Origin: Minisyncoccota bacterium
GTDB taxonomy: Bacteria > Patescibacteriota > Minisyncoccia > Phycocordibacterales > SBAW01
Direction of reading: 5' to 3'
Assembly: GCA_035546615.1 (NCBI GenBank)
Contig: DASZWM010000002.1
Span: 15,460-79,459, forward strand
DNA length: 64,000 nucleotides
Positions 23,682-55,726 of the stretch are shown one piece after another (the first letter of the stretch is position 1; every line of letters begins with the position of its first letter). The notes beneath the pieces were generated by a model. That model was not told the origin of the DNA, made no database searches, and saw only the letters and a list, made by a program, of their open reading frames with translations. The position numbers and the translations under genes were made by a program.

Positions 23682-23736
23682 GCTACAAAAGCCTTGGAAT
23701 ATAAGGCCAAATCGAACGTTTTCCTACTGCTTTTTG

Positions 23737-23820
23737 TGCCGGGGGTGGGAATCGAACCCACACGAACTCGCGTTCTCAGGATTTTAAGTCCTGTATGTCT
23801 ACCAATTCCATCACCCCGGC
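23737..23820 (-). tRNA. tRNA-Leu (anticodon TAA)
   Basis: Hand-folded cloverleaf: acceptor GCCGGGG/CCCCGGC, anticodon loop CTTAAAA, long variable arm, T arm GTGGG TTCGATT CCCAC. Confidence 0.9.
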
Positions 23821-23873
23821 GTTTCATATTTTTACCACGAATTTATGCTCTGTATATGATACAGTGTCAGCAC

Positions 23874-23955
23874 GCTGGGGTGGCGGAATTGGTATACGCA
23901 CCTGCCTTAGGAGCAGACGGGGTAACCCATGGAGGTTCAAGTCCTCTCCCCAGCA
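23874..23955 (+). tRNA. tRNA-Leu (anticodon TAG)
   Basis: Acceptor GCTGGGG/CCCCAGC, anticodon loop CTTAGGA, long variable arm, T arm GGAGG TTCAAGT CCTCT. Confidence 0.88.
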
Positions 23956-24075
23956 CATTGTAAGAGATAAGTTTTTGTTGTATTTTGATTCATACGCGCC
24001 TATATCTTCCCCAGGTCGATATAGCCGTTCGTTCGGGGCGAATGCAAAACAGGATTTTGCGCTCTTCCTCACTTC

Positions 24076-24148
24076 GCGCCTATAGCTCAGCTGGTAGAGC
24101 TGCTCCCTCTTAAGGAGAAGGTCCCAGGTTCGAATCCTGGTGGGCGCA
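24076..24148 (+). tRNA. tRNA-Lys (anticodon CTT)
   Basis: GCGCCTA TAGCTCAGCTGGTAGAGC, anticodon loop CTCTTAA, T arm CCCAG GTTCGAAT CCTGG. Confidence 0.92.
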
Positions 24149-24159
24149 CAGACGACAGT

Positions 24160-24184
24160 AAAATCCCGCTTGAGCGGGATTTTC
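24160..24184 (+). terminator. rho-independent terminator after tRNA-Lys
   Basis: AAAATCCCGC ttga GCGGGATTTT. Confidence 0.7.
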
Positions 24185-24278
24185 TGCGCTGTGCGGGGCG
24201 CAGCCATGTCCCGCACTGGCGGGACGGCGAGCCGGGGTCGCGAAACTATTTCGCGACGGCGAAATAGTATTTGTGACC
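24184..24278 (+). repeat. tRNA-linked structured element, copy D (short form, 3' of tRNA-Lys)
   Basis: CTGCGC tgtgcggg GCGCAG; CCCGC actg GCGGG; ACGGCGAGCCGGGGTCGCG; ACTATTTCGC gacg GCGAAATAGT; ATTTGTGACC. Shares the core, GACG-loop hairpin and tail with copy E. Confidence 0.55.
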
Positions 24279-24301
24279 ACAAAGTGCGAGACGCTTTTTT
24301 G

Positions 24302-24447
24302 AGGCCAGGAGAAATCGATCAGGCGTTCAAAAATTGTCGTCACAATTTTTGCCGCACGACCCTGCCTCGCTCCCAAGTCTGCTGACTTGGGGCCCGCTCC
24401 GGCTTGCGATTCCCGACGAGAAGCACCCCGTGCTTCTCTCCATGGCC
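24302..24447 (-). repeat. tRNA-linked structured element, copy A (long form, 3' of tRNA-Cys)
   Basis: Three perfect hairpins plus the conserved core GCCGGAGCGGG..GGGAGCGAGGCAGGGTCGTG shared with copies B and C. The arms derive from the tRNA-Cys 3' end. Confidence 0.8.
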
Positions 24448-24469
24448 GCTTGCGTCGAAGACTCCTTAG

Positions 24470-24541
24470 AGGCCACGGCGGGAATCGCACCCGCGTATAA
24501 AGGATTTGCAGTCCCTTGCCTTACTACTTGGCTACGTGGCC
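24470..24541 (-). tRNA. tRNA-Cys (anticodon GCA)
   Basis: GGCCACG/CGTGGCC acceptor, anticodon loop CTGCAAA, T arm GCGGG TGCGATT CCCGC, discriminator U. Confidence 0.9.
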
Positions 24542-31235: not shown

Positions 31236-31594
31236 TATGCGTGGTGGTATAGGAAATCATTCGTGACGTTCCCGACCCTGGAGAACCTGTTCTTTTCCCA
31301 GAATCGCTCGCTTTGGCGCTGGACTTGCACGGCGCGAATGTCCCGCAATCCGGCCTCCCAGGCTTGTTCGAGCAGTACAGCCAGCGCTTGGCTCCCGAAG
31401 CCGCGTCCATATGCCGTATGGGGTATGACGGTCATATTGGTAATGACCAGGTCGGCCCCGGTCTGCCGGTCGTTGAACACGATGCGGATGTGCGCCCGCA
31501 CGGCGTTAGGGAAGGGAAAATGCAGGATGTATGCTTCTTCCGCGCGGTCGTCGGGTTCGATCTCGCAATACTCAGCCAGCTTCTTGATCAGCAT
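31235..31594 (-). CDS. GNAT-family N-acetyltransferase (short, 119 aa)
   Basis: YGRGFGSQALAVLLEQA (acetyl-CoA motif A) and FWEKNRF. Confidence 0.7.
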   Translation of the reverse strand: MLIKKLAEYCEIEPDDRAEEAYILHFPFPNAVRAHIRIVFNDRQTGADLVITNMTVIPHTAYGRGFGSQALAVLLEQAWEAGLRDIRAVQVQRQSERFWEKNRFSRVGNVTNDFLYHHA

Positions 31595-31602
31595 GGTCCC
31601 TC

Positions 31603-31806
31603 CTAGTGTTTCGGTTGGGTTTTGGCGTAGAGCATGACCGCAACGGCATATACGGCCGTTAGGGTCGGCGCGCCCGTGGGGTACGTCTTCACCGCATGCT
31701 TGCCCTGATTGATCTCCTCAAGCGCCCGCTCGATGTATTCTCGCGGAACAGGAGTATCTCCCCGGCCTTGCGCCGTATCCTCGACTAGTTTTACCATGTC
31801 CGACAT
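31603..31806 (-). CDS. small hypothetical protein upstream of the GNAT gene
   Basis: Internal ATG (MSDMVKLVEDTAQ...) preceded by AAGGAG. 8-nt gap to the GNAT start. Confidence 0.4.
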   Translation of the reverse strand: MSDMVKLVEDTAQGRGDTPVPREYIERALEEINQGKHAVKTYPTGAPTLTAVYAVAVMLYAKTQPKH

Positions 31807-31919
31807 CCGCAGATTCTCCTTACTAACGCGTTCTGCCTCCAAAATGCACTATACGGCACCGGAGCGGAATGGGAAAGGCGAGACAGTTTTATAGTGGATA
31901 GAATAGTGGACCAAGATAG

Positions 31920-31953
31920 AAAAAGCTGGCAATAAGCCAGCAGTTTCTTTTTT
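31920..31953. terminator. hairpin flanked by A- and T-runs at the distal end of element B
   Basis: AAAAAGCTGGC aataa GCCAGC AGTTTCTTTTTT. Confidence 0.5.
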
Positions 31954-31954
31954 A

Positions 31955-32107
31955 GTGCGCCGGGGAGGAATCGGTCAGGAATAAAGTGTTCGCCGTCGCG
32001 AATACTTTTTCACGACCCTGCCTCGCTCCCGCATCTGGTGATGCGGGGCCCGCTCCGGCTTGCGAATCCTCACGCAAGGTATCCCATACCTTGCTCCCGC
32101 GCAGCAC
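31955..32107 (-). repeat. tRNA-linked structured element, copy B (long form, 3' of tRNA-Tyr)
   Basis: Same three-hairpin architecture and core as copies A and C. It ends with a 15-nt exact copy of the tRNA-Tyr 3' end (31955-31969 = 32152-32166). Confidence 0.8.
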
Positions 32108-32114
32108 ATAACGC

Positions 32115-32144
32115 AAAAAGTCCTAGCAAGAGCTAAGACTTTTT
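32115..32144. terminator. terminator between tRNA-Tyr and element B
   Basis: AAAAAGTCCTAG caagag CTAAGACTTTTT (7 of 8 bp), with an A-run and T-run on either side. Confidence 0.55.
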
Positions 32145-32152
32145 GACGTTTG

Positions 32153-32235
32153 TGCGCCGGGGAGGATTCGAACCTCCGTAGCCCGAAGGCGACAGGTTTA
32201 CAGCCTGTTGTAATTGACCACTCTACCACCGACGC
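32153..32235 (-). tRNA. tRNA-Tyr (anticodon GTA)
   Basis: GCGTCGG/CCGGCGC acceptor, anticodon loop CTGTAAA, long variable arm, T arm GGAGG TTCGAAT CCTCC. Confidence 0.9.
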
Positions 32236-32313
32236 GTTTCAATAGAACGTTCTTACTTTACACTGTTTGCTTTTCCTTGTCAGCAGGCGAAAATTGGGTG
32301 CTACAATATTGGC

Positions 32314-33414
32314 ATGCGCAATAGGGGTGCCGTACTCATATTTGCGGGAGGGCTGCTCTTTACCCTCTTGCCGTTTATCGCCTCGGCCGCCGGGATTGTT
32401 CCATGTGGCGATACCACGGGCCTTGCGCCAGGTACTCCTCAGTATTACGCGGCCGCAACAAGTTGTCAGGCATGCAGCGTAATTCAACTGATTCAGACCC
32501 TTATTAACTTCATGATAGGACTCTCCATTCCTATCGCGATGGCGCTCTTCGCCTGGGCCGGCGTCCTGTATTTTACAGCCGCTACCAAGGAGGAGAATAT
32601 ATCAAAGGCAAAGAGCATTTTCCGCAGCGTATTTGTCGGATTCATCATAGTTCTCGGCGCATACCTTATGGTAGAGACGCTCCTGCACGCCATTCTTAAT
32701 CAGGATTACTTTACCGGCTGGAACAAGATCGAATGCGTTGATAATACCAAGCGCCCAACCCAGGGCACGCTCGGTCAACTGATAAATGAAGTAATAGGCC
32801 ATCCGGAAGATTCTTTAGTTGTTGGGAAGGCTCCTGTCGCGGTAAGCGATCCGTCTACATGTACCGGCAAACTGAGCTACGACAGCTCTATCAATCAGTA
32901 TTACTGCTTGAATACAGTCAGCGGCATGGTCAGTCAAACAGGCTCTGGACAGTGTGCGCCCGGCAGCATACAAGCTGCTGCTGCGGCGGGAGGATATCCC
33001 ATTACACCAGCACAAGCTCAGACCTTTTCCTGCCTTGCGGCTCCGGAAAGCGGTTGCCAAGGGAATCCTGGCCAAGCCAGGACGCCGACCGGCGACCCGA
33101 CAAGCGCTTCCGGCCATTTTCAGATCGTCCTTGGCCTCAATGATCAGTGTCATAATCTGAATATTCCTGCATGCACCCAGGCTGCGCAAGCAGCCGGCTA
33201 TTCGGTAAGCGGGAATCTCAATTGCTCCAGCCACTTCAGGGGAGGCGTTCCTATAGACGCAGTAGGACAGGCATGCAAGGCGGCGGCAAGCAACTTTACC
33301 TGCAATGCTTCGGCTGCGGCTTGTCTGGTAACGCAGAATCCAAGCTTTAGCGACTGGACGGCGGACCCTCGCAGCAGTTCACAGAAATCATGCGTCAATA
33401 CGTATAATCATTAG
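32314..33414 (+). CDS. pilin-like N-terminal module fused to a Cys-rich extracellular domain (possible lytic transglycosylase-like)
   Basis: N-terminus has IVPCG...SCQACSVIQLIQTLINFMIGLSIPIAMALFAWAGVLYF...KAKSIF..., the pilin layout of 19846-21419. The C-terminal ~240 aa carry many Cys residues and APESGC...SASGHFQI, which resembles the SLT E-S ... G-x-x-Q motif. Confidence 0.6.
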   Translation: MRNRGAVLIFAGGLLFTLLPFIASAAGIVPCGDTTGLAPGTPQYYAAATSCQACSVIQLIQTLINFMIGLSIPIAMALFAWAGVLYFTAATKEENISKAKSIFRSVFVGFIIVLGAYLMVETLLHAILNQDYFTGWNKIECVDNTKRPTQGTLGQLINEVIGHPEDSLVVGKAPVAVSDPSTCTGKLSYDSSINQYYCLNTVSGMVSQTGSGQCAPGSIQAAAAAGGYPITPAQAQTFSCLAAPESGCQGNPGQARTPTGDPTSASGHFQIVLGLNDQCHNLNIPACTQAAQAAGYSVSGNLNCSSHFRGGVPIDAVGQACKAAASNFTCNASAAACLVTQNPSFSDWTADPRSSSQKSCVNTYNH

Positions 33415-34259: not shown

Positions 34260-34330
34260 GGGCCTATAGTTTAACGGTAGAACGTCGGTCTCCAAAACCG
34301 TCGGTCGAGGTTCAATTCCTCGTGGGCCCG
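34260..34330 (+). tRNA. tRNA-Trp (anticodon CCA)
   Basis: GGGCCTA/TGGGCCC acceptor, anticodon loop CTCCAAA, T arm CGAGG TTCAATT CCTCG. Confidence 0.88.
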
Positions 34331-34371
34331 CAAAAGACGCAAAATGCAACCTTCGTTGCTTTTTGTGCGTT

Positions 34372-34459
34372 GCGGGAGACGGAGCGATGCCGCGCAATGG
34401 CGCGGCCGCGAGTCGGGGTCGCGAAAATTTTTTGCGACGGCAAAAAGTTATTTGTGACC
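34372..34459 (+). repeat. tRNA-linked structured element, copy E (divergent short form, 3' of tRNA-Trp)
   Basis: GGAGCGATGCC; GCCGCGC aatg GCGCGGC; CGCGAGTCGGGGTCGCG; AAAATTTTTTGC gacg GCAAAAAGTT; ATTTGTGACC. Confidence 0.5.
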
Positions 34460-35341
34460 GCTCAAAAATTTTTTTGCGAGCCGCATAGCCTTCGCTTTGT
34501 TCCCGATCCAGATAATGTCCTTGTTCCGCTTGAACCAGCGCATCTGGCGCTTGGCATAATCCCAGTTTCCCCGTTCTATTTCCGCTACAAGCGCCTCTTT
34601 GTTCAGCAAGCCTTGCAGATACTGCGCAAGAGAACGGTATTCAAGCCCCAGCTCATGCATGCGCTTGTATGACACTCCTGCCTTGTGCAAACGTTTTGCT
34701 TCCATCACCATGCCTGCTTTCATGCGCCGGATGGTGCGAAGATGGATATTTTTCTTGAGCTTTTTCTCATCTGGCGCCAGCCCCAGCCACAGGACGTCAT
34801 ATTTCTGTTCAGGCTTGGGTAGAGGGCTTTTGCCGATAGCCTTGGCTATCTCTATCGCGCGTATGATACGCCGCTTGTGTCCGGGTTCAATAGTGCCAGC
34901 GCGGCGCAGGTCGAGCTTTTTAAGAATTGACAGCAGCTCTTCGGCGCTCTTTTTCTCGAGCCGCGCACGAAGTGCGGGGTTAGGCGCCACATTGGGCATA
35001 GTCATGCGGCCCAGGAGCATATCGATATACAGCCCCGTTCCACCAACTACTATGGGGAAAGTATGATATATCATACTTTTTTCGATCACGTTTTGCGCCT
35101 TCTTTACGAAGTCGTCGACGGAGAACTGCCTTTTAGGCGACGCGACGTTGAGCAGGTGGTGGGGGATGCCGGCCATCTCTTTTTTTGTAACTTTGCCGGT
35201 CGCAATATCGAGGCCGCGGTAGACTTGCCGCGAGTCGGCGGAGATTATCTCGCCGCCCAACTTTTGCGCAAGAAAAATACCAAGGGCGCTCTTGCCCGAA
35301 GCGGTCGGTCCGACTATAGCGATAACTTTAGGCTTTGACAT
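34448..35341 (-). CDS. miaA: tRNA dimethylallyltransferase
   Basis: IVGPTASGKSALGIFLA, ISADSRQVYRGLDIATGK. Confidence 0.93.
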   Translation of the reverse strand: MSKPKVIAIVGPTASGKSALGIFLAQKLGGEIISADSRQVYRGLDIATGKVTKKEMAGIPHHLLNVASPKRQFSVDDFVKKAQNVIEKSMIYHTFPIVVGGTGLYIDMLLGRMTMPNVAPNPALRARLEKKSAEELLSILKKLDLRRAGTIEPGHKRRIIRAIEIAKAIGKSPLPKPEQKYDVLWLGLAPDEKKLKKNIHLRTIRRMKAGMVMEAKRLHKAGVSYKRMHELGLEYRSLAQYLQGLLNKEALVAEIERGNWDYAKRQMRWFKRNKDIIWIGNKAKAMRLAKKFLSGHK

Positions 35342-36939: not shown

Positions 36940-37053
36940 TGGCGGGGGGAATCGGCTACCACGTAGCCAGGTACTTTTCGATCTCGATGACTCGATAACG
37001 AAAAGTCTTTCGATTCTCCCATGGAAGCAAATCAATTTGCTTCCTCCCCGGAC
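36940..37053 (-). repeat. tRNA-linked structured element, copy F (variant core, 3' of tRNA-Leu-CAA)
   Basis: hp1 is GGAAGCAAA ttga TTTGCTTCC. GGGAGAATCGAA is the exact reverse complement of the tRNA T arm. The distal CCGATTCCCCCCGCCA is a decayed copy of the tRNA 3' end. Confidence 0.55.
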
Positions 37054-37060
37054 TCCAGAC

Positions 37061-37088
37061 AGAAAAAGAGCCGGGCGGTAAGCCTGGC
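37061..37088 (-). terminator. terminator after tRNA-Leu(CAA)
   Basis: On the minus strand, GCCAGGC ttacc GCCCGGC followed by TCTTTTTCT. Confidence 0.6.
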
Positions 37089-39789: not shown

Positions 39790-42009
39790 TTATTCCGCTT
39801 TTTTCTTTGCAAAGCCTCTGCGCTTCTTTTCTTCGCTCAGTATCTCAAGCGCGCGATCGAGCGTAATCGCATATACGTCATCGGTTTTGAGTGAGCGGAA
39901 GTCGGGTTTGGGCTTCGTATTGTGGGCGATATAGGGACCAAAACGGCCGATGTTTGCAGTAATGGTCTCCTCGGTATCGGGGTGTACACCGAGCACGCGT
40001 GGGAGGCTCAAATACTTAAGAGCATCTTCAAGCGTAACTTCTTCGGGCACTTTTTCTTTGGGGATGGAGCCGCGCTTGGGCTTGTTCTTGGACTTCGAGC
40101 CCTTGCCGGTCGGCGTTTCGCCCACCTGCACGTACGGGCCGAATCGTCCGGTCAGCACGTAAATGGGCTCGCCGGTCTCCGGATAATTGCCGATGGGCTT
40201 GGGCGGCTCGTTTGAAATAACTTCGCCGGTCTCCGTGCGCGCGCCGAGGCAGTCGGGGAAGCGCGAGCAGGACATGAACTTGCCCTGGCGCGAGAGCTTG
40301 AACACCATGGGGCTGCCGCAGAGGGGGCATTTGAACTCTTCCGGCGCGGGACCGAGATCGGTAATCTTACCGGCCTCCTTATCCTTCAATTTAACGTCCT
40401 TAAGGAACGGGGTGTAGAAATCGCCGAGGGTCTTGGCATATTCGCGCTTGCCCTGCGCGATGTCGTCGAGCTCGTCTTCCATCTCGGCGGTAAAGGTATC
40501 TGAAATATAGTTGGCGAAGTTATCCTCGAGGAAGCTCGATACCACGTCGCCGGTGTCGGTGGGCATAAGCGTGCGGCCTTCCTTCAATACGTAGCCGCGG
40601 TCCTGGAGCGTCTTCATGATGCTCGCGTACGTGGACGGGCGGCCGATGCCGCGCTTCTCAAGCTCCTTTATGAGGCCGGCCTCGGTATAGCGGTTGGGCG
40701 GAGTGGTAGCCTTTTCCTCGGCCGACACGTCCTTAACGTCGAGCACTTCCTTGGCCGATACTTTCGGCAGTTCCACATCCTCGCCGCGGGCCGCAGGGTC
40801 GGCCTTGAGCCAGCCGTCGAATACGACGCGCGAGCCGTTGGCCGCAAATTGGGGGATCTTGGCGTTCTTGGTCTCGGCTACGACTTTCGTCTTGAGGAGC
40901 TTTGCATCCGCCATCTGGGAGGCGATTGTGCGCGCCCAGATAAGCTCGTAGAGCTTTTTCTGGTCCGGGGTCGTGCCGACCGACTCCTTTTCTATGTGGG
41001 TGGGACGCACCGCCTCGTGGGCTTCCTGCGCGTTCTTGGACTTGGCGGCGAAGGTATGCGCCTCGACATAGTTCTTGCCGTACTTCTTTTCGGCGTGGGC
41101 AAGTATGGAGGCGCGCGCCGGAGCGCCGAGGTTGGTCGAGTCGGTGCGCATGTAGGTGATATGCCCGGCTTCATACAGCTTCTGCGCGATGCGCATAGTA
41201 TTGGAAGGGGAATACCCGAGGCGCGTCGAAGCCGCCTGCTGGAGGGTGGAAGTGGTGAACGGCGCCCGGGGTGCGCGCTTCATTTCGCTTTCGGTCACGT
41301 CCAAGACGGTAAGCCCGTCCTTTTTGACGGCCTCTAGTATCTTGTCAGCCTCGTCCTTCTTGCGCGGCTCCTCGACGCAGGTAAGCATCAGGTCATCCTT
41401 TGCCTCGGTCTTCGTCGCCGCAGTTATTACATAAAACGTTTCGGGTACGAAGGCGCGTATCTCGCGCTCGCGCTCCATGATGATGCGCAAGGCGGGGCTC
41501 TGCACGCGTCCGGCCGAAAGCCCGTAGCGCACTTTCTTCCAAATGAGGCCGGAGAGGTCGTAGCCCACGAGGCGGTCGAGCACGCGGCGGGCCTCCTGGG
41601 CGAAGCGGAGGTTCTGGTCTATCTGGCGCGGATTCGCGAGCGCCTCGGCAATGGCTTCCTTGGTAATTTCGTGGAATACGATGCGCTCGGGCTTTTTGAG
41701 CTTAAGCTCCTGGCCGATGTGCCAGGCGATAGCCTCGCCCTCGCGGTCGGGGTCGGTCGCGAGTATGACCTCGTCGGCCTTCTTGGCGAGATGCGCCAGC
41801 TCGTCGATGACCTTGGCCTTGCCGGGCACGACCTCGTAGTGGGGGACGAAGCCCGCCGGAATGTCGATGGCTTTCTTATTGGACTTCGGCAGGTCGCGCA
41901 CGTGGCCCACGGATGCCCGCACGACGAAATCGCCTTTCTTGTCTATTTCGGAAAGGTACTTCTCAATAGTTTTCGCCTTGGCGGGCGACTCGACGATGAC
42001 CAGTTTCAT
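39790..42009 (-). CDS. topA: DNA topoisomerase I
   Basis: Toprim domain MKLVIVESPAKAKTIEKYL, active-site region GHITYMRTDS, C-terminal Cys4 zinc ribbons. Confidence 0.96.
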   Translation of the reverse strand: MKLVIVESPAKAKTIEKYLSEIDKKGDFVVRASVGHVRDLPKSNKKAIDIPAGFVPHYEVVPGKAKVIDELAHLAKKADEVILATDPDREGEAIAWHIGQELKLKKPERIVFHEITKEAIAEALANPRQIDQNLRFAQEARRVLDRLVGYDLSGLIWKKVRYGLSAGRVQSPALRIIMEREREIRAFVPETFYVITAATKTEAKDDLMLTCVEEPRKKDEADKILEAVKKDGLTVLDVTESEMKRAPRAPFTTSTLQQAASTRLGYSPSNTMRIAQKLYEAGHITYMRTDSTNLGAPARASILAHAEKKYGKNYVEAHTFAAKSKNAQEAHEAVRPTHIEKESVGTTPDQKKLYELIWARTIASQMADAKLLKTKVVAETKNAKIPQFAANGSRVVFDGWLKADPAARGEDVELPKVSAKEVLDVKDVSAEEKATTPPNRYTEAGLIKELEKRGIGRPSTYASIMKTLQDRGYVLKEGRTLMPTDTGDVVSSFLEDNFANYISDTFTAEMEDELDDIAQGKREYAKTLGDFYTPFLKDVKLKDKEAGKITDLGPAPEEFKCPLCGSPMVFKLSRQGKFMSCSRFPDCLGARTETGEVISNEPPKPIGNYPETGEPIYVLTGRFGPYVQVGETPTGKGSKSKNKPKRGSIPKEKVPEEVTLEDALKYLSLPRVLGVHPDTEETITANIGRFGPYIAHNTKPKPDFRSLKTDDVYAITLDRALEILSEEKKRRGFAKKKAE

Positions 42010-54992: not shown

Positions 54993-55015
54993 ACATCCTT
55001 ACAAACTTGAGAATG
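54993..55015. repeat. left copy of the 23-bp inverted repeat bracketing the ArsR-family gene (also part of a terminator hairpin)
   Basis: ACATCCTTACAAACTTGAGAATG. Its first 9 nt pair with 55016-55024 (TAAGGATGT), flanked by AAA/TTTTT. Confidence 0.7.
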
Positions 55016-55026
55016 TAAGGATGTTT

Positions 55027-55311
55027 TTAGAGATTCTGGAAGGATTTTAGGAAGCGGACGAATATCTTACCGTAGGGCGAAAGCCGGTGCTCCACGAACT
55101 TGCCGCGATACTTTTTTGCGATAAGGCCGGCCACATAGAGCCGCCTGGTGTGCTCGCCGATGGTCTTCTCGTTCGCATTAAGGGTCGCCGCAATAGTATC
55201 GAGCGTAACGCCCTCGTGCCGGGCGATAAGAAGCAGTATCTCGATGCGGTAATGATTTGCCATGCCCTTGAGATGGCGTTCCATCTGCTTTGCCGTCTTC
55301 GTATTTTTCAT
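55027..55311 (-). CDS. ArsR/SmtB-family winged-helix transcriptional regulator
   Basis: LKGMANHYRIEILLLIARHEGVTLDTIAATLNANEKTIGEHTRRLYVAGLI. An alternative GTG start lies at 55332. Confidence 0.75.
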   Translation of the reverse strand: MKNTKTAKQMERHLKGMANHYRIEILLLIARHEGVTLDTIAATLNANEKTIGEHTRRLYVAGLIAKKYRGKFVEHRLSPYGKIFVRFLKSFQNL

Positions 55312-55337
55312 GCGGGAGAGTATACATGACACCCCAA

Positions 55338-55360
55338 CATTCTCAAGTTTGTAAGGATGT
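55338..55360. promoter_or_regulatory. right copy of the 23-bp inverted repeat, in the ArsR-family gene promoter region (candidate operator)
   Basis: CATTCTCAAGTTTGTAAGGATGT is the exact reverse complement of 54993-55015. Confidence 0.5.
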
Positions 55361-55431: not shown

Positions 55432-55502
55432 TGCCCGATCGTCTAATGGTAGGACAGAGGCCTTTGAAGCCTTTAATTGGGGTTCGAATCCCTGTCGGGC
55501 AG
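55432..55502 (+). tRNA. tRNA-Gln (anticodon TTG)
   Basis: TGCCCGA/TCGGGCA acceptor (U1-A72), anticodon loop CTTTGAA, T arm TGGGG TTCGAAT CCCTG. Confidence 0.9.
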
Positions 55503-55523
55503 CAAATGTAGCGAAGCGTAATT

Positions 55524-55664
55524 TGCGCCCGAAGGAAGCAATGGGATTGCTTCCGGCAGGGATTCGAAAGCCGGAGCGGGACCCGCATCAGCAGATGCGG
55601 GAGCGAGGCAGGGTCGTGCGGCTAAAGTTGCGACGGCAACTTTAGAACGCCTGACCGAATCCCT
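55524..55664 (+). repeat. tRNA-linked structured element, copy C (long form, 3' of tRNA-Gln)
   Basis: hp1 is GGAAGCAAT ggg ATTGCTTCC, hp2 is CCCGCATC agca GATGCGGG, hp3 is CTAAAGTTGC gacg GCAACTTTAG. The core is near-identical to copies A and B. CAGGGATTCGAA is the exact reverse complement of the tRNA-Gln T arm. Confidence 0.8.
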
Positions 55665-55726
55665 AAGAAGTTTCTAGTTTTCTCTGTCTCTAGGCAGAAT
55701 CACTTTTTGATGGTAAATCTGTCCTG

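What the first reader, a model, noticed from the sequence alone, without database searches (positions are those of the whole stretch)
31955..32144. Element copy B: exact duplication of the tRNA-Tyr 3' end, bracketed by two terminator-like hairpins
Downstream of tRNA-Tyr (minus strand) the order is as follows. First comes a terminator (32115-32144). Next is the left arm GTGC(T)GCGCGGGAG, then hp1 (GCAAGGTAT ggg ATACCTTGC), then GT-GAGGATTCG, then the conserved core with hp2 (CCCGCATC acca GATGCGGG) and hp3 (AAAGTATTCGC gacg GCGAACACTTT). The right arm CCGATTCCTCCCCGGCGCAC follows, and a second hairpin plus T-run (31920-31953) closes the unit. The right arm reproduces the tRNA 3' end TCGAATCCTCCCCGGCGCAC, including 15 consecutive identical nt (31955-31969 = 32152-32166). 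The left arm is the imperfect reverse complement of the same sequence. On the DNA this gives both a direct repeat with the tRNA and 13-14-nt terminal inverted repeats. A direct repeat of a tRNA 3' end is the classical signature of site-specific integration. Here, however, the enclosed segment is under 200 bp, has no genes, and belongs to a family found at other tRNA species. Being boxed between two terminators also fits an independent small transcription unit.
Basis: seen in the sequence. Interest (0 to 1): 0.7.

Follow-up and report, generated by a model that had tools for sequence, protein, structure and literature searches.

The report
Gene-less mini insertion behind tRNA-Tyr
The segment behind tRNA-Tyr is one copy of a widespread, undescribed family of about 130-260-base, gene-free, highly structured elements that insert into the ends of tRNA, tmRNA and some protein genes of Patescibacteria, replace the gene's tail with their own copy, and appear to pick their target by base pairing.

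Summary
The repeat of the tRNA-Tyr 3' end is 18/19 nt, with 15 nt in a row identical. The integration reading is supported, but the boundaries move. The element most likely runs from the tRNA T-loop (C56) through the present tRNA 3' end (S), hairpin X ("terminator 1"), an antisense arm split by hairpin hp1 (AS-a, AS-b), and an 86-nt core. The "right arm" (S') is the displaced original tRNA end.

- **Core:** it has very strong covariation, including an invariant G·U, and matches no Rfam family.
- **Spread:** a covariance model finds 5 copies in this window and about 130 in Patescibacteria (plus three Elusimicrobia loci). They lie behind more than 30 tRNA species, tmRNA and the 3' end of topA.
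- **topA:** the two copies of the coding tail differ mostly synonymously (pN/pS 0.03-0.10).
- **Mobility:** relatives show empty tRNA-Trp sites, two insertion sublocations and tandem arrays. Near-identical cores sit at different targets.
- **Arm:** the antisense arm tracks S at each target.
- **Missing:** no recombinase or larger autonomous version was seen.

Best reading: a non-autonomous, guide-directed, site-specific insertion element. Its mechanism (RNA or folded single-stranded DNA, and the enzyme) is unknown.

The parts
32152..32235 (-). tRNA-Tyr(gta), the target gene, intact
   Evidence: ARAGORN. Rfam tRNA 59.3 bits. A promoter-like site lies at 32283-32255 on the minus strand.
32152..32170 (-). 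S: the present last 19 nt of the tRNA (T-loop C56 to the end), inferred to have been brought in by the element (attL side)
   Evidence: 18/19 identical to S'. The breakpoint at C56 is constant: the duplicated block starts 19 nt before the tRNA end (-19) and S' starts at offset 0 in about 20 loci, and within 2 nt of that in about 10 more. That S is the element-borne copy is inferred from the topA cases and from AS matching S better than S'.
32110..32150 (-). X: A-run, GC hairpin, U-run ('terminator 1'), the tip of the long S-X-AS palindrome
   Evidence: Folds at -24 kcal/mol, z = -8.7. Equivalent hairpins occupy this position in most family members. The terminator scan did not call it.
32094..32107 (-).
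   Evidence: Read from the sequence. In the fold of 32062-32171 it pairs with the tRNA 3' end (-66 kcal/mol, z = -9.9). The antisense arm tracks the local tRNA in all class-2 loci.
32074..32094 (-). hp1: 9-bp hairpin splitting the antisense arm near the acceptor/T-stem boundary
   Evidence: It is present in many class-2 members of both core families, and its loop is often AACUGCUU.
32063..32073 (-). AS-b: antisense to CGAAUCCUC (T-loop and T-stem 3' strand), the 5' strand of helix P1
   Evidence: Exact complement of S; it has one U·U mismatch with S'. P1 shows changes on both sides in 7 of 8 pairs.
31974..32059 (-). Conserved structured core (P2 GXC/GYC, tandem G·A, hp2, P4 with invariant G·U and a bulged A, hp3 with GACG loop)
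   Evidence: R1 hit 31961-32072 at 95.7 bits. Covariation on 97 sequences: 87% of cells paired against 66% when shuffled and 34-43% when slid; 879 double-change cells. No Rfam family matches.
31955..31973 (-). Its first bases form the 3' strand of P1, and it starts at the invariant core C (31973).
   Evidence: It is degenerate in other copies (Gln_C, Cys_A, L036), as expected for a useless fragment.
31920..31953 (-). Hairpin plus U-run after S', most likely the original terminator of tRNA-Tyr
   Evidence: The terminator scan calls 31925-31941 on the minus strand. Folds at -16.5 kcal/mol, z = -6.3.
24305..24416 (-). Sister copy Cys_A, behind tRNA-Cys (24469-24541, minus strand)
   Evidence: R1 90.8 bits. 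Sequence.
55557..55668 (+). Sister copy Gln_C, behind tRNA-Gln (55432-55503). The antisense arm still matches the tRNA, while S' is kept for only 9 nt.
   Evidence: R1 100.9 bits. Sequence.
24184..24290 (+). Sister copy Lys_D (class 1: inserted at the very 3' end of tRNA-Lys 24076-24149)
   Evidence: R1 80.8 bits. Sequence.
34365..34471 (+). Sister copy Trp_E (class 1, behind tRNA-Trp 34260-34331)
   Evidence: R1 81.5 bits. Sequence.
36940..37075 (-). Related element behind tRNA-Leu(caa), with the same S-X-AS-a-hp1-AS-b-AAAG scaffold but a different core ('core2')
   Evidence: Sequence. R1 does not hit it. The core2 pattern finds 28 metagenome loci with the same architecture, and L021 has it behind tRNA-Phe.

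Best explanation
Copy B is a small (about 197 bp), gene-less, site-specific insertion element sitting in the tRNA-Tyr gene. The element starts at T-loop position C56. It supplies a replacement 3' end for the tRNA (S) and a terminator-like hairpin (X). Next comes an antisense arm complementary to S, split by hairpin hp1 (AS-a, AS-b). It ends with an 86-nt conserved, intricately folded core. The tRNA end that was there before (S') was pushed downstream, just ahead of its old terminator.

Shown:
- The same core, in the same orientation, sits behind more than 30 tRNA species, behind tmRNA, and inside the 3' end of topA and other protein genes.
- The breakpoint is always the last C of the core.
- The gene tail is always present twice.
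- The antisense arm always matches the local target.

Inferred:
- The target is chosen by base pairing of AS-b (5-10 nt next to the core) with the sequence immediately 3' of the insertion point. Two generic tRNA features are used: the T-loop CGAAUCC, or the end-plus-trailer CAC-AAAA. A look-alike of the latter, CAC(C)AAAAC, is used in topA.
- The fold acts on one strand (RNA, or single-stranded DNA) and brings the two junctions together. A trans-acting enzyme, or possibly the core itself, would then exchange strands there.
- Once established at a target, the unit can also spread between related genomes by ordinary recombination, using the gene body and S' as homology arms.
For: 1. **Architecture.** The tRNA is intact and a displaced 3' fragment lies in direct orientation 128-258 nt away in 25 loci, 15 of them 18/18 exact. 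The breakpoint is constant at C56 (class 2) or C72 (class 1).
2. **Other targets.** Four elements sit just 3' of tmRNA. Five sit in the topA 3' end, where the 60-100-nt coding tail is present twice.
3. **topA divergence.** S and S' differ mostly synonymously: 86% nt identity and pN/pS 0.03 in L027; 67% and 0.10 in L097. In L017, L080 and L078, S' carries frameshifts or a deletion. Two once-functional alleles are therefore juxtaposed, and the downstream one decays.
4. **Gain and loss.** tRNA-Trp is empty in the syntenic loci L121-L124. It carries a T-loop insertion with a 19/19 repeat in L120, and a 3'-end insertion in the window, L088 and L092.
5. **Tandem accretion.** Three copies of the tRNA-Asp end occur in L087. 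L126 and L137 carry two successive core2 units.
6. **Retargeting.** Nearest-neighbour cores with at least 80% identity sit at different tRNA amino-acid types in 34 of 38 cases. They also cross insertion classes and reach topA.
7. **Guide-like arm.** AS matches S better than S' in 53 of 62 loci, with 5 ties. P1 covaries. The topA site resembles class-1 sites, and the topA cores are closest to class-1 cores.
8. **The core is a selected fold on the tRNA-sense strand.** 87% of cells pair, against 66% when shuffled and 34-43% when slid. G64·U101 is invariant, and pair 66:99 is G-C in 48 and G·U in 47 sequences.
9. **A second core family uses the same scaffold**.
Against: - No recombinase, transposase or reverse transcriptase was found inside or consistently near the elements, so the moving machinery is unknown.
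- No excised form, circle junction or empty allele of this exact locus was found. The one metagenome scan for the empty junction gave 0 hits, with low power.
- For tRNA targets I cannot prove which repeat copy came with the element. That is extrapolated from topA and from the AS-to-S match.
- In L025 and L078, AS matches S' better than S (my reading).
- Hairpin X looks like a terminator, which argues against efficient transcription of the core from the tRNA promoter. That leaves RNA versus single-stranded DNA open.
- Covariation in P1 would also arise if the fold merely needs a closing helix, without any role in targeting.
- Only 8-kb stretches of one genome per species were examined, and the literature search covered open-access text only.
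Confidence: 0.62

Rival explanations
1. Deletion scars. Each unit is what remains (attL plus one island end plus attR) after a normal integrase-encoding island or prophage integrated into the tRNA and lost its interior. The core is just the conserved end of that island.
For: The regenerated-gene and displaced-fragment signature and the T-loop or 3'-end sublocations are those of tyrosine-integrase islands (principle stated in PMC4383910, listed). Non-autonomous attL-attR remnants are known in other bacteria (my own knowledge).
Against: - About 130 copies were examined and every repeat partner is 128-258 nt away. None is kilobases away.
- 6 of the 8 tRNAs in this 64-kb window carry a unit.
- The core is under strong selection for a fold.
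- Near-identical cores occur at different targets with re-matched arms.
- Two unrelated cores share the same scaffold.
- No hit in phage, plasmid or viral collections.
Confidence: 0.1
2. Host-beneficial structured RNA. The element is a vertically inherited non-coding RNA co-transcribed with tRNAs. It could be a tRNA top-half mimic (acceptor-like and T-like helices) acting in tRNA 3' processing, quality control or regulation. Its arms match the neighbouring tRNA because the function requires it.
For: The element always lies on the tRNA-sense strand directly behind tRNA or tmRNA. It has strong covariation with G·U pairs. AS-a, AS-b and S' build an acceptor/T-stem-like stack with hp1 near the 65/66 junction. 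The antisense arm can pair either with the tRNA's own 3' end or with S', which looks like a switch.
Against: - Close syntenic relatives have bare tRNA-Trp.
- The same tRNA is hit at two different positions in different genomes.
- Tandem arrays occur.
- Elements sit in topA and other protein genes and displace coding tails.
- S' is often degenerate.
- Cores do not cluster by tRNA type.
- A terminator-like hairpin separates the tRNA from the core.

A mobile element whose core RNA also does something for or to the host is not excluded.
Confidence: 0.12
3. Local duplication. The repeats arose in place by replication slippage or fold-back synthesis at tRNA terminators. The similarity between copies reflects gene conversion, not transposition.
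For: The S-X-AS segment is one long palindrome, a structure prone to template switching. Copies in the window are mosaics: Tyr_B shares hp2 with Gln_C, while Gln_C shares hp3 with Cys_A.
Against: It does not explain how an 86-nt conserved core with 23 invariant positions comes to lie at more than 30 unrelated sites in many genomes. It does not explain the synonymous-only divergence of the topA duplicates, the sequence after S being unrelated to that after S', or near-identical cores in different species at different targets.
Confidence: 0.05

Closest known systems
tRNA/tmRNA-targeting integrative genetic elements (genomic islands and prophages with tyrosine integrases; Islander-type definition, PMC4383910)
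   Same: The insertion splits a conserved gene near its 3' end. The element carries a replacement tail, so the gene stays intact. The displaced fragment marks the far end. T-loop and extreme 3'-end sublocations are used, tmRNA and protein-gene 3' ends are also targets, and tandem arrays form at one site.
   Different: These elements are 128-258 bp rather than 5-100 kb and contain no integrase or any other gene. They carry an antisense copy of the target and a covarying, RNA-like folded core at the junction. One core family serves dozens of targets.
Non-autonomous derivatives of mobile elements (MITEs; cis-mobilizable attL-attR elements derived from integrative conjugative elements)
   Same: They are short, gene-less, multi-copy, and presumably moved by something encoded elsewhere.
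   Different: MITEs have family-wide conserved terminal inverted repeats and a fixed short target duplication. Here the 'inverted repeat' is target-specific and the duplication runs 5-100 nt, up to the end of the target gene. No parent element or cognate enzyme is known.
Folded single-strand recombination sites (integron attC; CTX-phi attP hairpin used by XerCD)
   Same: A strand-specific fold has two complementary arms that rebuild a duplex resembling the target, and G·T/U pairs are tolerated. After integration the hairpin arms end up spread out in the double-stranded chromosome.
   Different: No attC R/L boxes or dif-like sequence are evident. The core is much more elaborate (three-way junction, tandem G·A, invariant loop). 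The recombinase is unknown.
Guide-bearing mobile RNAs (group I/II introns with IGS/EBS, IS110 bridge RNA, IscB/TnpB omega RNA)
   Same: A short guide segment next to a conserved scaffold is complementary to the target at the insertion point, and specificity changes by changing the guide.
   Different: There is no intron-encoded protein, recombinase or nuclease gene. No Rfam model matches. The guide pairs with the sequence 3' of the insertion point, and the target tail is duplicated, which splicing-type or bridge-type mechanisms do not produce.
tRNA-like RNA modules (tmRNA tRNA-like domain, bacterial Y RNA YrlA)
   Same: AS-a/S' and AS-b/S' can stack into an acceptor/T-stem-like helix carrying the neighbouring tRNA's own 3' sequence.
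   Different: The resemblance follows from duplication of the target. It is lost where S' has decayed. No T-loop is present (the core replaces it), and the Rfam models do not match.

Membership tests
tDNA-type integrative genetic element | Intact regenerated target gene plus a displaced 3' fragment in direct orientation | tested here: met
   Tyr_B is 18/19. 25 loci have a repeat partner and 15 are exact. topA tails are duplicated.
tDNA-type integrative genetic element | Crossover at a defined sublocation of tRNA or tmRNA (T-loop or 3' end) | tested here: met
   S' starts at core C105, which corresponds to C56 in class-2 loci and to C72 in class 1. tmRNA targets were found.
tDNA-type integrative genetic element | Integrase (tyrosine or serine recombinase) encoded within the element | tested here: not met
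   The unit is 128-258 nt with no ORF. 10 flanking ORFs are housekeeping or have no Pfam match. No recurrent recombinase cluster appears in about 110 loci.
tDNA-type integrative genetic element | Presence/absence polymorphism at the same target among related genomes | tested here: met
   tRNA-Trp is empty in the syntenic loci L121-L124 and occupied in L120, the window, L088 and L092, at two sublocations. For the tRNA-Tyr locus itself no empty allele was found.
tDNA-type integrative genetic element | Excision to a circular form that restores attB | not testable with these tools
   This needs raw reads or experiments.
MITE | Terminal inverted repeats conserved across copies of the family | tested here: not met
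   The arms differ at every target and match the local tRNA.
MITE | Short target-site duplication of fixed length, identical at birth | tested here: not met
   The duplication is 5-8 nt (class 1), 19-29 nt (class 2) and 60-100 nt (topA). The topA copies are 67-86% identical with pN/pS 0.03-0.10.
Any Rfam 15 family (including known ribozymes, riboswitches, group I/II introns, tmRNA, Y RNA) | Match at or near the family's gathering score | tested here: not met
   Only tRNAs reach the gathering score in the window. The E<=10 scan of 31500-32600 gives only chance-level hits.
Conserved structured RNA (generic) | Base pairs supported by compensatory changes beyond shuffled and slid controls | tested here: met
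   87.2% of cells pair against 66.0% when shuffled. 879 cells change on both sides against 284 in shuffles (0 of 500 shuffles reach it). Slid controls give 34-43%.
Folded single-strand att site (attC or CTX-phi type) | Strand-specific imperfect hairpin that mimics the target duplex | tested here: inconclusive
   S-X-AS folds into one branched hairpin at -66 kcal/mol, and G·U/T pairs mark one strand. RNA and single-stranded DNA cannot be told apart from sequence.
Folded single-strand att site (attC or CTX-phi type) | Dependence on an integron integrase or XerCD; conserved R/L or dif-like boxes | not testable with these tools
   No such boxes were noticed. Enzyme dependence needs experiments.
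Intrinsic terminators flanking the unit | GC-rich hairpin followed by a U-run | tested here: met
   The scan calls hairpin 2. Hairpin 1 folds at -24 kcal/mol and is followed by UUUUU, but the scan did not call it.

The most novel reading that the evidence does not exclude
A protein-gene-free, guide-directed mobile element. The folded core would be either a ribozyme or the scaffold of a guide RNA (or guide single-stranded DNA) for an unlinked host enzyme. The adjacent 5-10-nt antisense arm would program insertion immediately 5' of any complementary sequence. The S/AS/S' arrangement would bring both junctions together for strand exchange. This would be a new, naturally programmable class of site-specific insertion system, abundant in the smallest bacterial genomes.
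Probability: 0.22. Interest if true: 0.95.

Novelty: new variant of a known kind. Interest (0 to 1): 0.8.

Why it matters
Patescibacteria have tiny genomes and few recognised mobile elements. Yet 6 of the 8 tRNA genes in this window carry one of these units, and related units were found in more than a hundred species-level genomes. If the reading is right, these are the smallest known elements that integrate site-specifically while repairing their target gene, and they do so without encoding any protein.

The antisense arm next to a conserved scaffold suggests target choice by base pairing. That would make the system naturally reprogrammable and would point to an unknown trans-acting enzyme or a catalytic RNA.

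There are practical consequences too. The displaced tRNA fragments and terminator-like hairpins affect tRNA and tmRNA annotation. The duplicated topA tails show how such units can be mistaken for gene fragments. The core is also a ready-made candidate for a new RNA family.

Tried and rejected
- **Rfam.** The gathering-score scan of the whole window and the permissive scan of 31500-32600 found only tRNAs and chance hits. The Rfam scan of 17 loci lacking a detected upstream tRNA found the tmRNA targets.
- **Phage and plasmid collections.** The core pattern gave 0 hits in viral contigs. BLAST against phages and plasmids gave no match.
- **Chance pattern hits.** Hits in Thauera, Actinomycetes and Thermoanaerobaculia were not confirmed by the covariance model and are chance.
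- **Pseudo-tRNA with an insertion in its T-loop.** Rejected. The 5' strand (GGAUUCG, GGAAUCG) is the antisense of the 3' strand, not the sense T-stem (GGGUUCG).
- **Hammerhead, box C/D, kink-turn, group I or II intron resemblance.** I considered each by eye and none fits. The GGAGC/GCGAG motif is a tandem G·A loop without the 3-nt bulge of a kink-turn.
- **Larger autonomous version.** No repeat partner lies more than 260 nt away, and no recurrent mobile-element ORF was found.
- **Recombinase near the window's elements.** The 10 ORFs tested include MiaA, PyrF, ParB, IF-2, a pilin and an SPFH-domain (Band 7) protein; four have no Pfam match. The rest of the window was not scanned.
- **The window's own topA as an empty site.** It lacks the C-terminal zinc ribbon that carries the target, so it is not comparable.
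- **Exact-protein lookup for near-identical strains.** It returned only a 2-kb contig without the tRNA.
- **Empty-allele junction search in metagenomes.** 0 hits.
- **Do cores cluster by genome?** Only sometimes. They do not cluster by target either.
- **Literature.** Six full-text searches found nothing describing this element. The paper on group I introns in Patescibacteria tRNAs concerns the anticodon loop, and TIGR-Tas is unrelated.
Full report
**1. The observation**

- tRNA-Tyr(gta), 32152-32235 (ARAGORN; Rfam 59.3 bits).
- An A-run/hairpin/U-run, 32110-32150 (-24 kcal/mol, z = -8.7).
- GTGCTGCGCGGGAG, 32094-32107.
- hp1, 32074-32094.
- GTGAGGATTCG, 32063-32073.
- A core containing hp2 (32028-32047) and hp3 (about 31983-32010).
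- CCGATTCCTCCCCGGCGCAC, 31955-31974.
- A second hairpin with a U-run, called as terminator-like at 31925-31941 (-16.5 kcal/mol).

31955-31969 equals 32152-32166. From T-loop C56 to the end of the tRNA the two copies agree at 18 of 19 positions.

**2. It is one copy of a large family**

A degenerate pattern taken from the core hits five times in the window, with 0 expected. It does not hit viral contigs. A neighbouring protein of the window is recorded from a 125,660-nt contig of a 'Candidatus Paceibacterota' MAG.

I aligned 97 cores with flanks (alignment A2) and proposed a fold:
- P1 closes the core.
- P2 is GXC/GYC.
- A tandem G·A loop separates P2 from a GC/GC step.
- hp2 follows.
- P4 (GGUCG/UGACC) carries a conserved bulged A.
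- hp3 has an invariant GACG loop.

Under this fold 87.2% of cells pair, against 66.0% after shuffling and 34-43% when partners are slid. 879 cells change on both sides, against 284 in shuffles, and 0 of 500 shuffles reach the observed values. X:Y in P2 is G:C 39, C:G 38, A:U 15. G64·U101 is invariant. Pair 66:99 is G-C in 48 and G·U in 47 sequences. The folded strand is therefore the tRNA-sense strand, as RNA or as single-stranded DNA.

Covariance model R1 finds exactly five strong copies in the window at 81-101 bits: 24184-24290 (+), 24305-24416 (-), 31961-32072 (-), 34365-34471 (+) and 55557-55668 (+). The next hit scores 15.8 bits. R1 finds 109 copies in L001-L100 and 23 more in the other loci. 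It rejects the pattern hits in unrelated phyla. No Rfam family matches.

**3. Where the copies sit**

- 62 of the 99 copies with at least 200 nt of upstream sequence in the 260-nt extracts have a same-strand tRNA ending 58-186 nt before the pattern. These cover 31 anticodons.
- Four of the remainder lie just 3' of tmRNA.
- Five (L017, L027, L078, L080, L097) lie in the 3' end of topA.
- Others lie at the ends of other coding genes (my reading).

Two insertion sublocations exist in tRNAs.
- **Class 2**, as at tRNA-Tyr: the sequence right after the core repeats the tRNA from T-loop C56 to the end, and sometimes up to 10 nt beyond. The breakpoint is constant.
- **Class 1**, as at the window's tRNA-Lys and tRNA-Trp: the repeat starts at C72 and covers CAC plus a few trailer bases.

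In 25 loci the first 18 nt after the core recur 128-258 nt upstream, and 15 are exact. None recurs kilobases away.

**4. Which copy belongs to the element**

In topA the last 60-100 nt of the reading frame occur twice. The order is: an upstream copy S that completes the gene, a small hairpin, the antisense arm, the core, and a second copy S'.
- In L027, S and S' are 86% identical, with 8 synonymous and 1 non-synonymous differences (pN/pS 0.03).
- In L097 they are 67% identical, both frames are intact, and pN/pS is 0.10.
- In L017 and L080, S' has frameshifts, and in L078 it has an internal deletion.

The two copies therefore diverged while each was a working gene end. They were then brought together, and the downstream one has been decaying since. 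This is what is expected if the element arrives carrying a replacement tail from a related genome, the principle used to map islands in tRNA genes (PMC4383910, listed).

Two further results agree with this. The antisense arm matches S better than S' in 53 of 62 tRNA loci, with 5 ties. In the window's Gln copy and in L036 (tRNA-Tyr of another genome) the arm is still an exact antisense of the tRNA while S' is kept for only 8-9 nt.

By this reading, element B spans 31974-32170. Its parts are S, X, AS-a, hp1, AS-b, a 3-nt linker and the core. S-X-AS-a-hp1-AS-b folds into one branched hairpin of -66 kcal/mol, z = -9.9.

**5. Evidence that the units move**

- Syntenic relatives share the gene order ClpB, pilin, 190-aa protein, MiaA. 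Of these, L121-L124 have a bare tRNA-Trp whose trailer runs into the next gene. L120 has a T-loop insertion with a 19/19 repeat. The window, L088 and L092 have 3'-end insertions.
- The tRNA-Asp end is present three times in L087. L126 and L137 carry two successive units.
- Core sequences do not follow their targets. Among nearest neighbours with at least 80% identity, 34 of 38 pairs sit at tRNAs for different amino acids. Pairs also cross the two classes and reach topA. Examples: L078 topA with L021 tRNA-Arg, 90%; the window's Cys copy with L010, 92%, where L010's displaced fragment differs.
- Copies within one locus are only sometimes each other's closest relatives.

**6. Target choice**

The constant feature of all copies is AS-b. 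This is 5-10 nt separated from the core by three bases (usually AAA). It is complementary to the bases that follow the breakpoint, and the invariant last C of the core is the first base of the repeat.

The two tRNA sublocations are generic sequences: CGAAUCC in the T-loop, and CAC followed by an A-rich trailer. The topA site, CAC(C)AAAAC, resembles the second. The topA cores are closest to class-1 cores.

I infer that pairing of AS-b with the target selects the insertion point. This is an inference. The same covariation would arise if the fold simply needs a closing helix.

**7. What is not known**

No recombinase, transposase or reverse transcriptase lies in or consistently near the units, and no larger autonomous relative was seen. 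No match exists in phage or plasmid collections. A scan of metagenome contigs for the empty tRNA-Tyr junction found nothing, with low power.

Sequence alone cannot say whether the active form is RNA or single-stranded DNA. The invariant G·U, the tandem G·A motifs and the invariant loop favour RNA. The terminator-like hairpin between the tRNA and the core argues against efficient transcription.

Once a unit exists at a target, it could also spread between relatives by homologous recombination. The gene body would serve as one arm and S' as the other. That would fit the topA data and needs no special enzyme. It cannot explain the retargeting.

**8. A second family**

The unit behind tRNA-Leu(caa) (36940-37075, minus strand) has the same scaffold: S, X, AS-a, hp1, AS-b and AAAG. 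Its core is different and ends in ACCUGGCUACGUGGUAGC. The same core lies behind tRNA-Phe in L021. Its pattern finds 28 metagenome loci, and 26 of 30 matches lie behind a same-strand tRNA, many with exact 19-nt repeats. L120 shows a third, degenerate core behind tRNA-Tyr. The scaffold is therefore shared by several cores.

**9. Comparison with known systems and verdict**

The behaviour is that of site-specific integrative elements of tRNA and tmRNA genes. The defining integrase is absent, and the size is one to two orders of magnitude smaller. It is not a MITE, because the arms are target-specific and the duplication is variable and diverged. It matches no Rfam family. Resemblances to folded single-strand att sites and to guide-bearing mobile RNAs are functional analogies only.

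I found no description of it in six full-text searches, though that corpus is incomplete.

I rate it a new variant of a known kind: a non-autonomous, structured, apparently guide-directed integrative element. There is a real chance (about 0.2) that its mechanism is categorically new.

Noticed in passing
window 36940-37075 (-); L021 4415-4560; L125-L152: A second family ('core2') uses the same S-X-AS-a-hp1-AS-b-AAAG scaffold behind tRNAs. Its core is different and simpler: GRCUUUUC, a variable hairpin, then GAAAAGYACCUGGCUACGUGGUAGC. The A/G after AAAG covaries with the U/C before ACC. Many copies have exact 19-nt repeats, and L126 and L137 carry a tandem double unit.
   Followed up: partly
L133, L141, L143, L146, L148, L150 (core2 loci); L046 (tmRNA locus): In several displaced fragments a 13-14-nt block interrupts the T-loop copy right after CGAA or CGAT. 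Its sequence is AAGCGTACTCGCGG, AAATGTACTCATGG or AGCGTAATCGCGG. It could be a footprint, a further mini-insertion, or a way of disabling the old target. It is unexplained.
   Followed up: no
hp1 of many copies (e.g. L016, L018, L033, L058, L136, L143, L146): The hp1 hairpin that splits the antisense arm often has the same loop (AACUGCUU), in both the core1 and core2 families, while its stem varies. This suggests hp1 is a recognised module of its own. The window's copies have GGG or UUG loops instead.
   Followed up: no
window 24150-24468: Two elements meet tail to tail. Lys_D (plus strand, behind tRNA-Lys) and Cys_A (minus strand, behind tRNA-Cys) are convergent and only about 15-25 nt apart. 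They lie within a cluster of four tRNA genes at 23736-24541.
   Followed up: partly
A2 columns 58, 65 and 100 (window Tyr_B about 32019, 32012 and 31978): The R in C-R-GGGUCG covaries with the Y in GUCG-Y-G (G with C, A with U). Meanwhile Y's P4 partner is G, C or A. This hints at a base triple or an alternative CAGG/CCUG helix. The invariant hp3 loop CGAC is also complementary to the GUCG of P4.
   Followed up: no
window 54993-55024 and 55329-55360: A 32-nt inverted repeat (91% complementary) brackets a 101-codon ORF (55027-55332, minus strand) just upstream of tRNA-Gln. Each arm is itself hairpin-like.
   Followed up: no
window 39790-42009 (-): The window's topA ends ...RRGFAKKKAE* and lacks the C-terminal zinc-ribbon tail that carries the element's target site in L017, L027, L078, L080 and L097.
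   Followed up: partly
L002 about 100-210; L051 about 230-330: In two loci the unit is preceded not by a gene end but by a promoter-like sequence (GTTCGCGCAAA, a spacer, then TAGAAT or TATAAT) a few bases before CACAAAAAC. It may be a copy with its own promoter or a different kind of target.
   Followed up: no
L120 1661-1900: tRNA-Tyr of a Kaiserbacteria relative carries the same scaffold (X, AS-a, short hp1, AS-b). Its core is degenerate: it keeps GCCGGAGC...GCGAG but lacks hp2 and P4. Two successive displaced T-arm fragments follow.
   Followed up: partly
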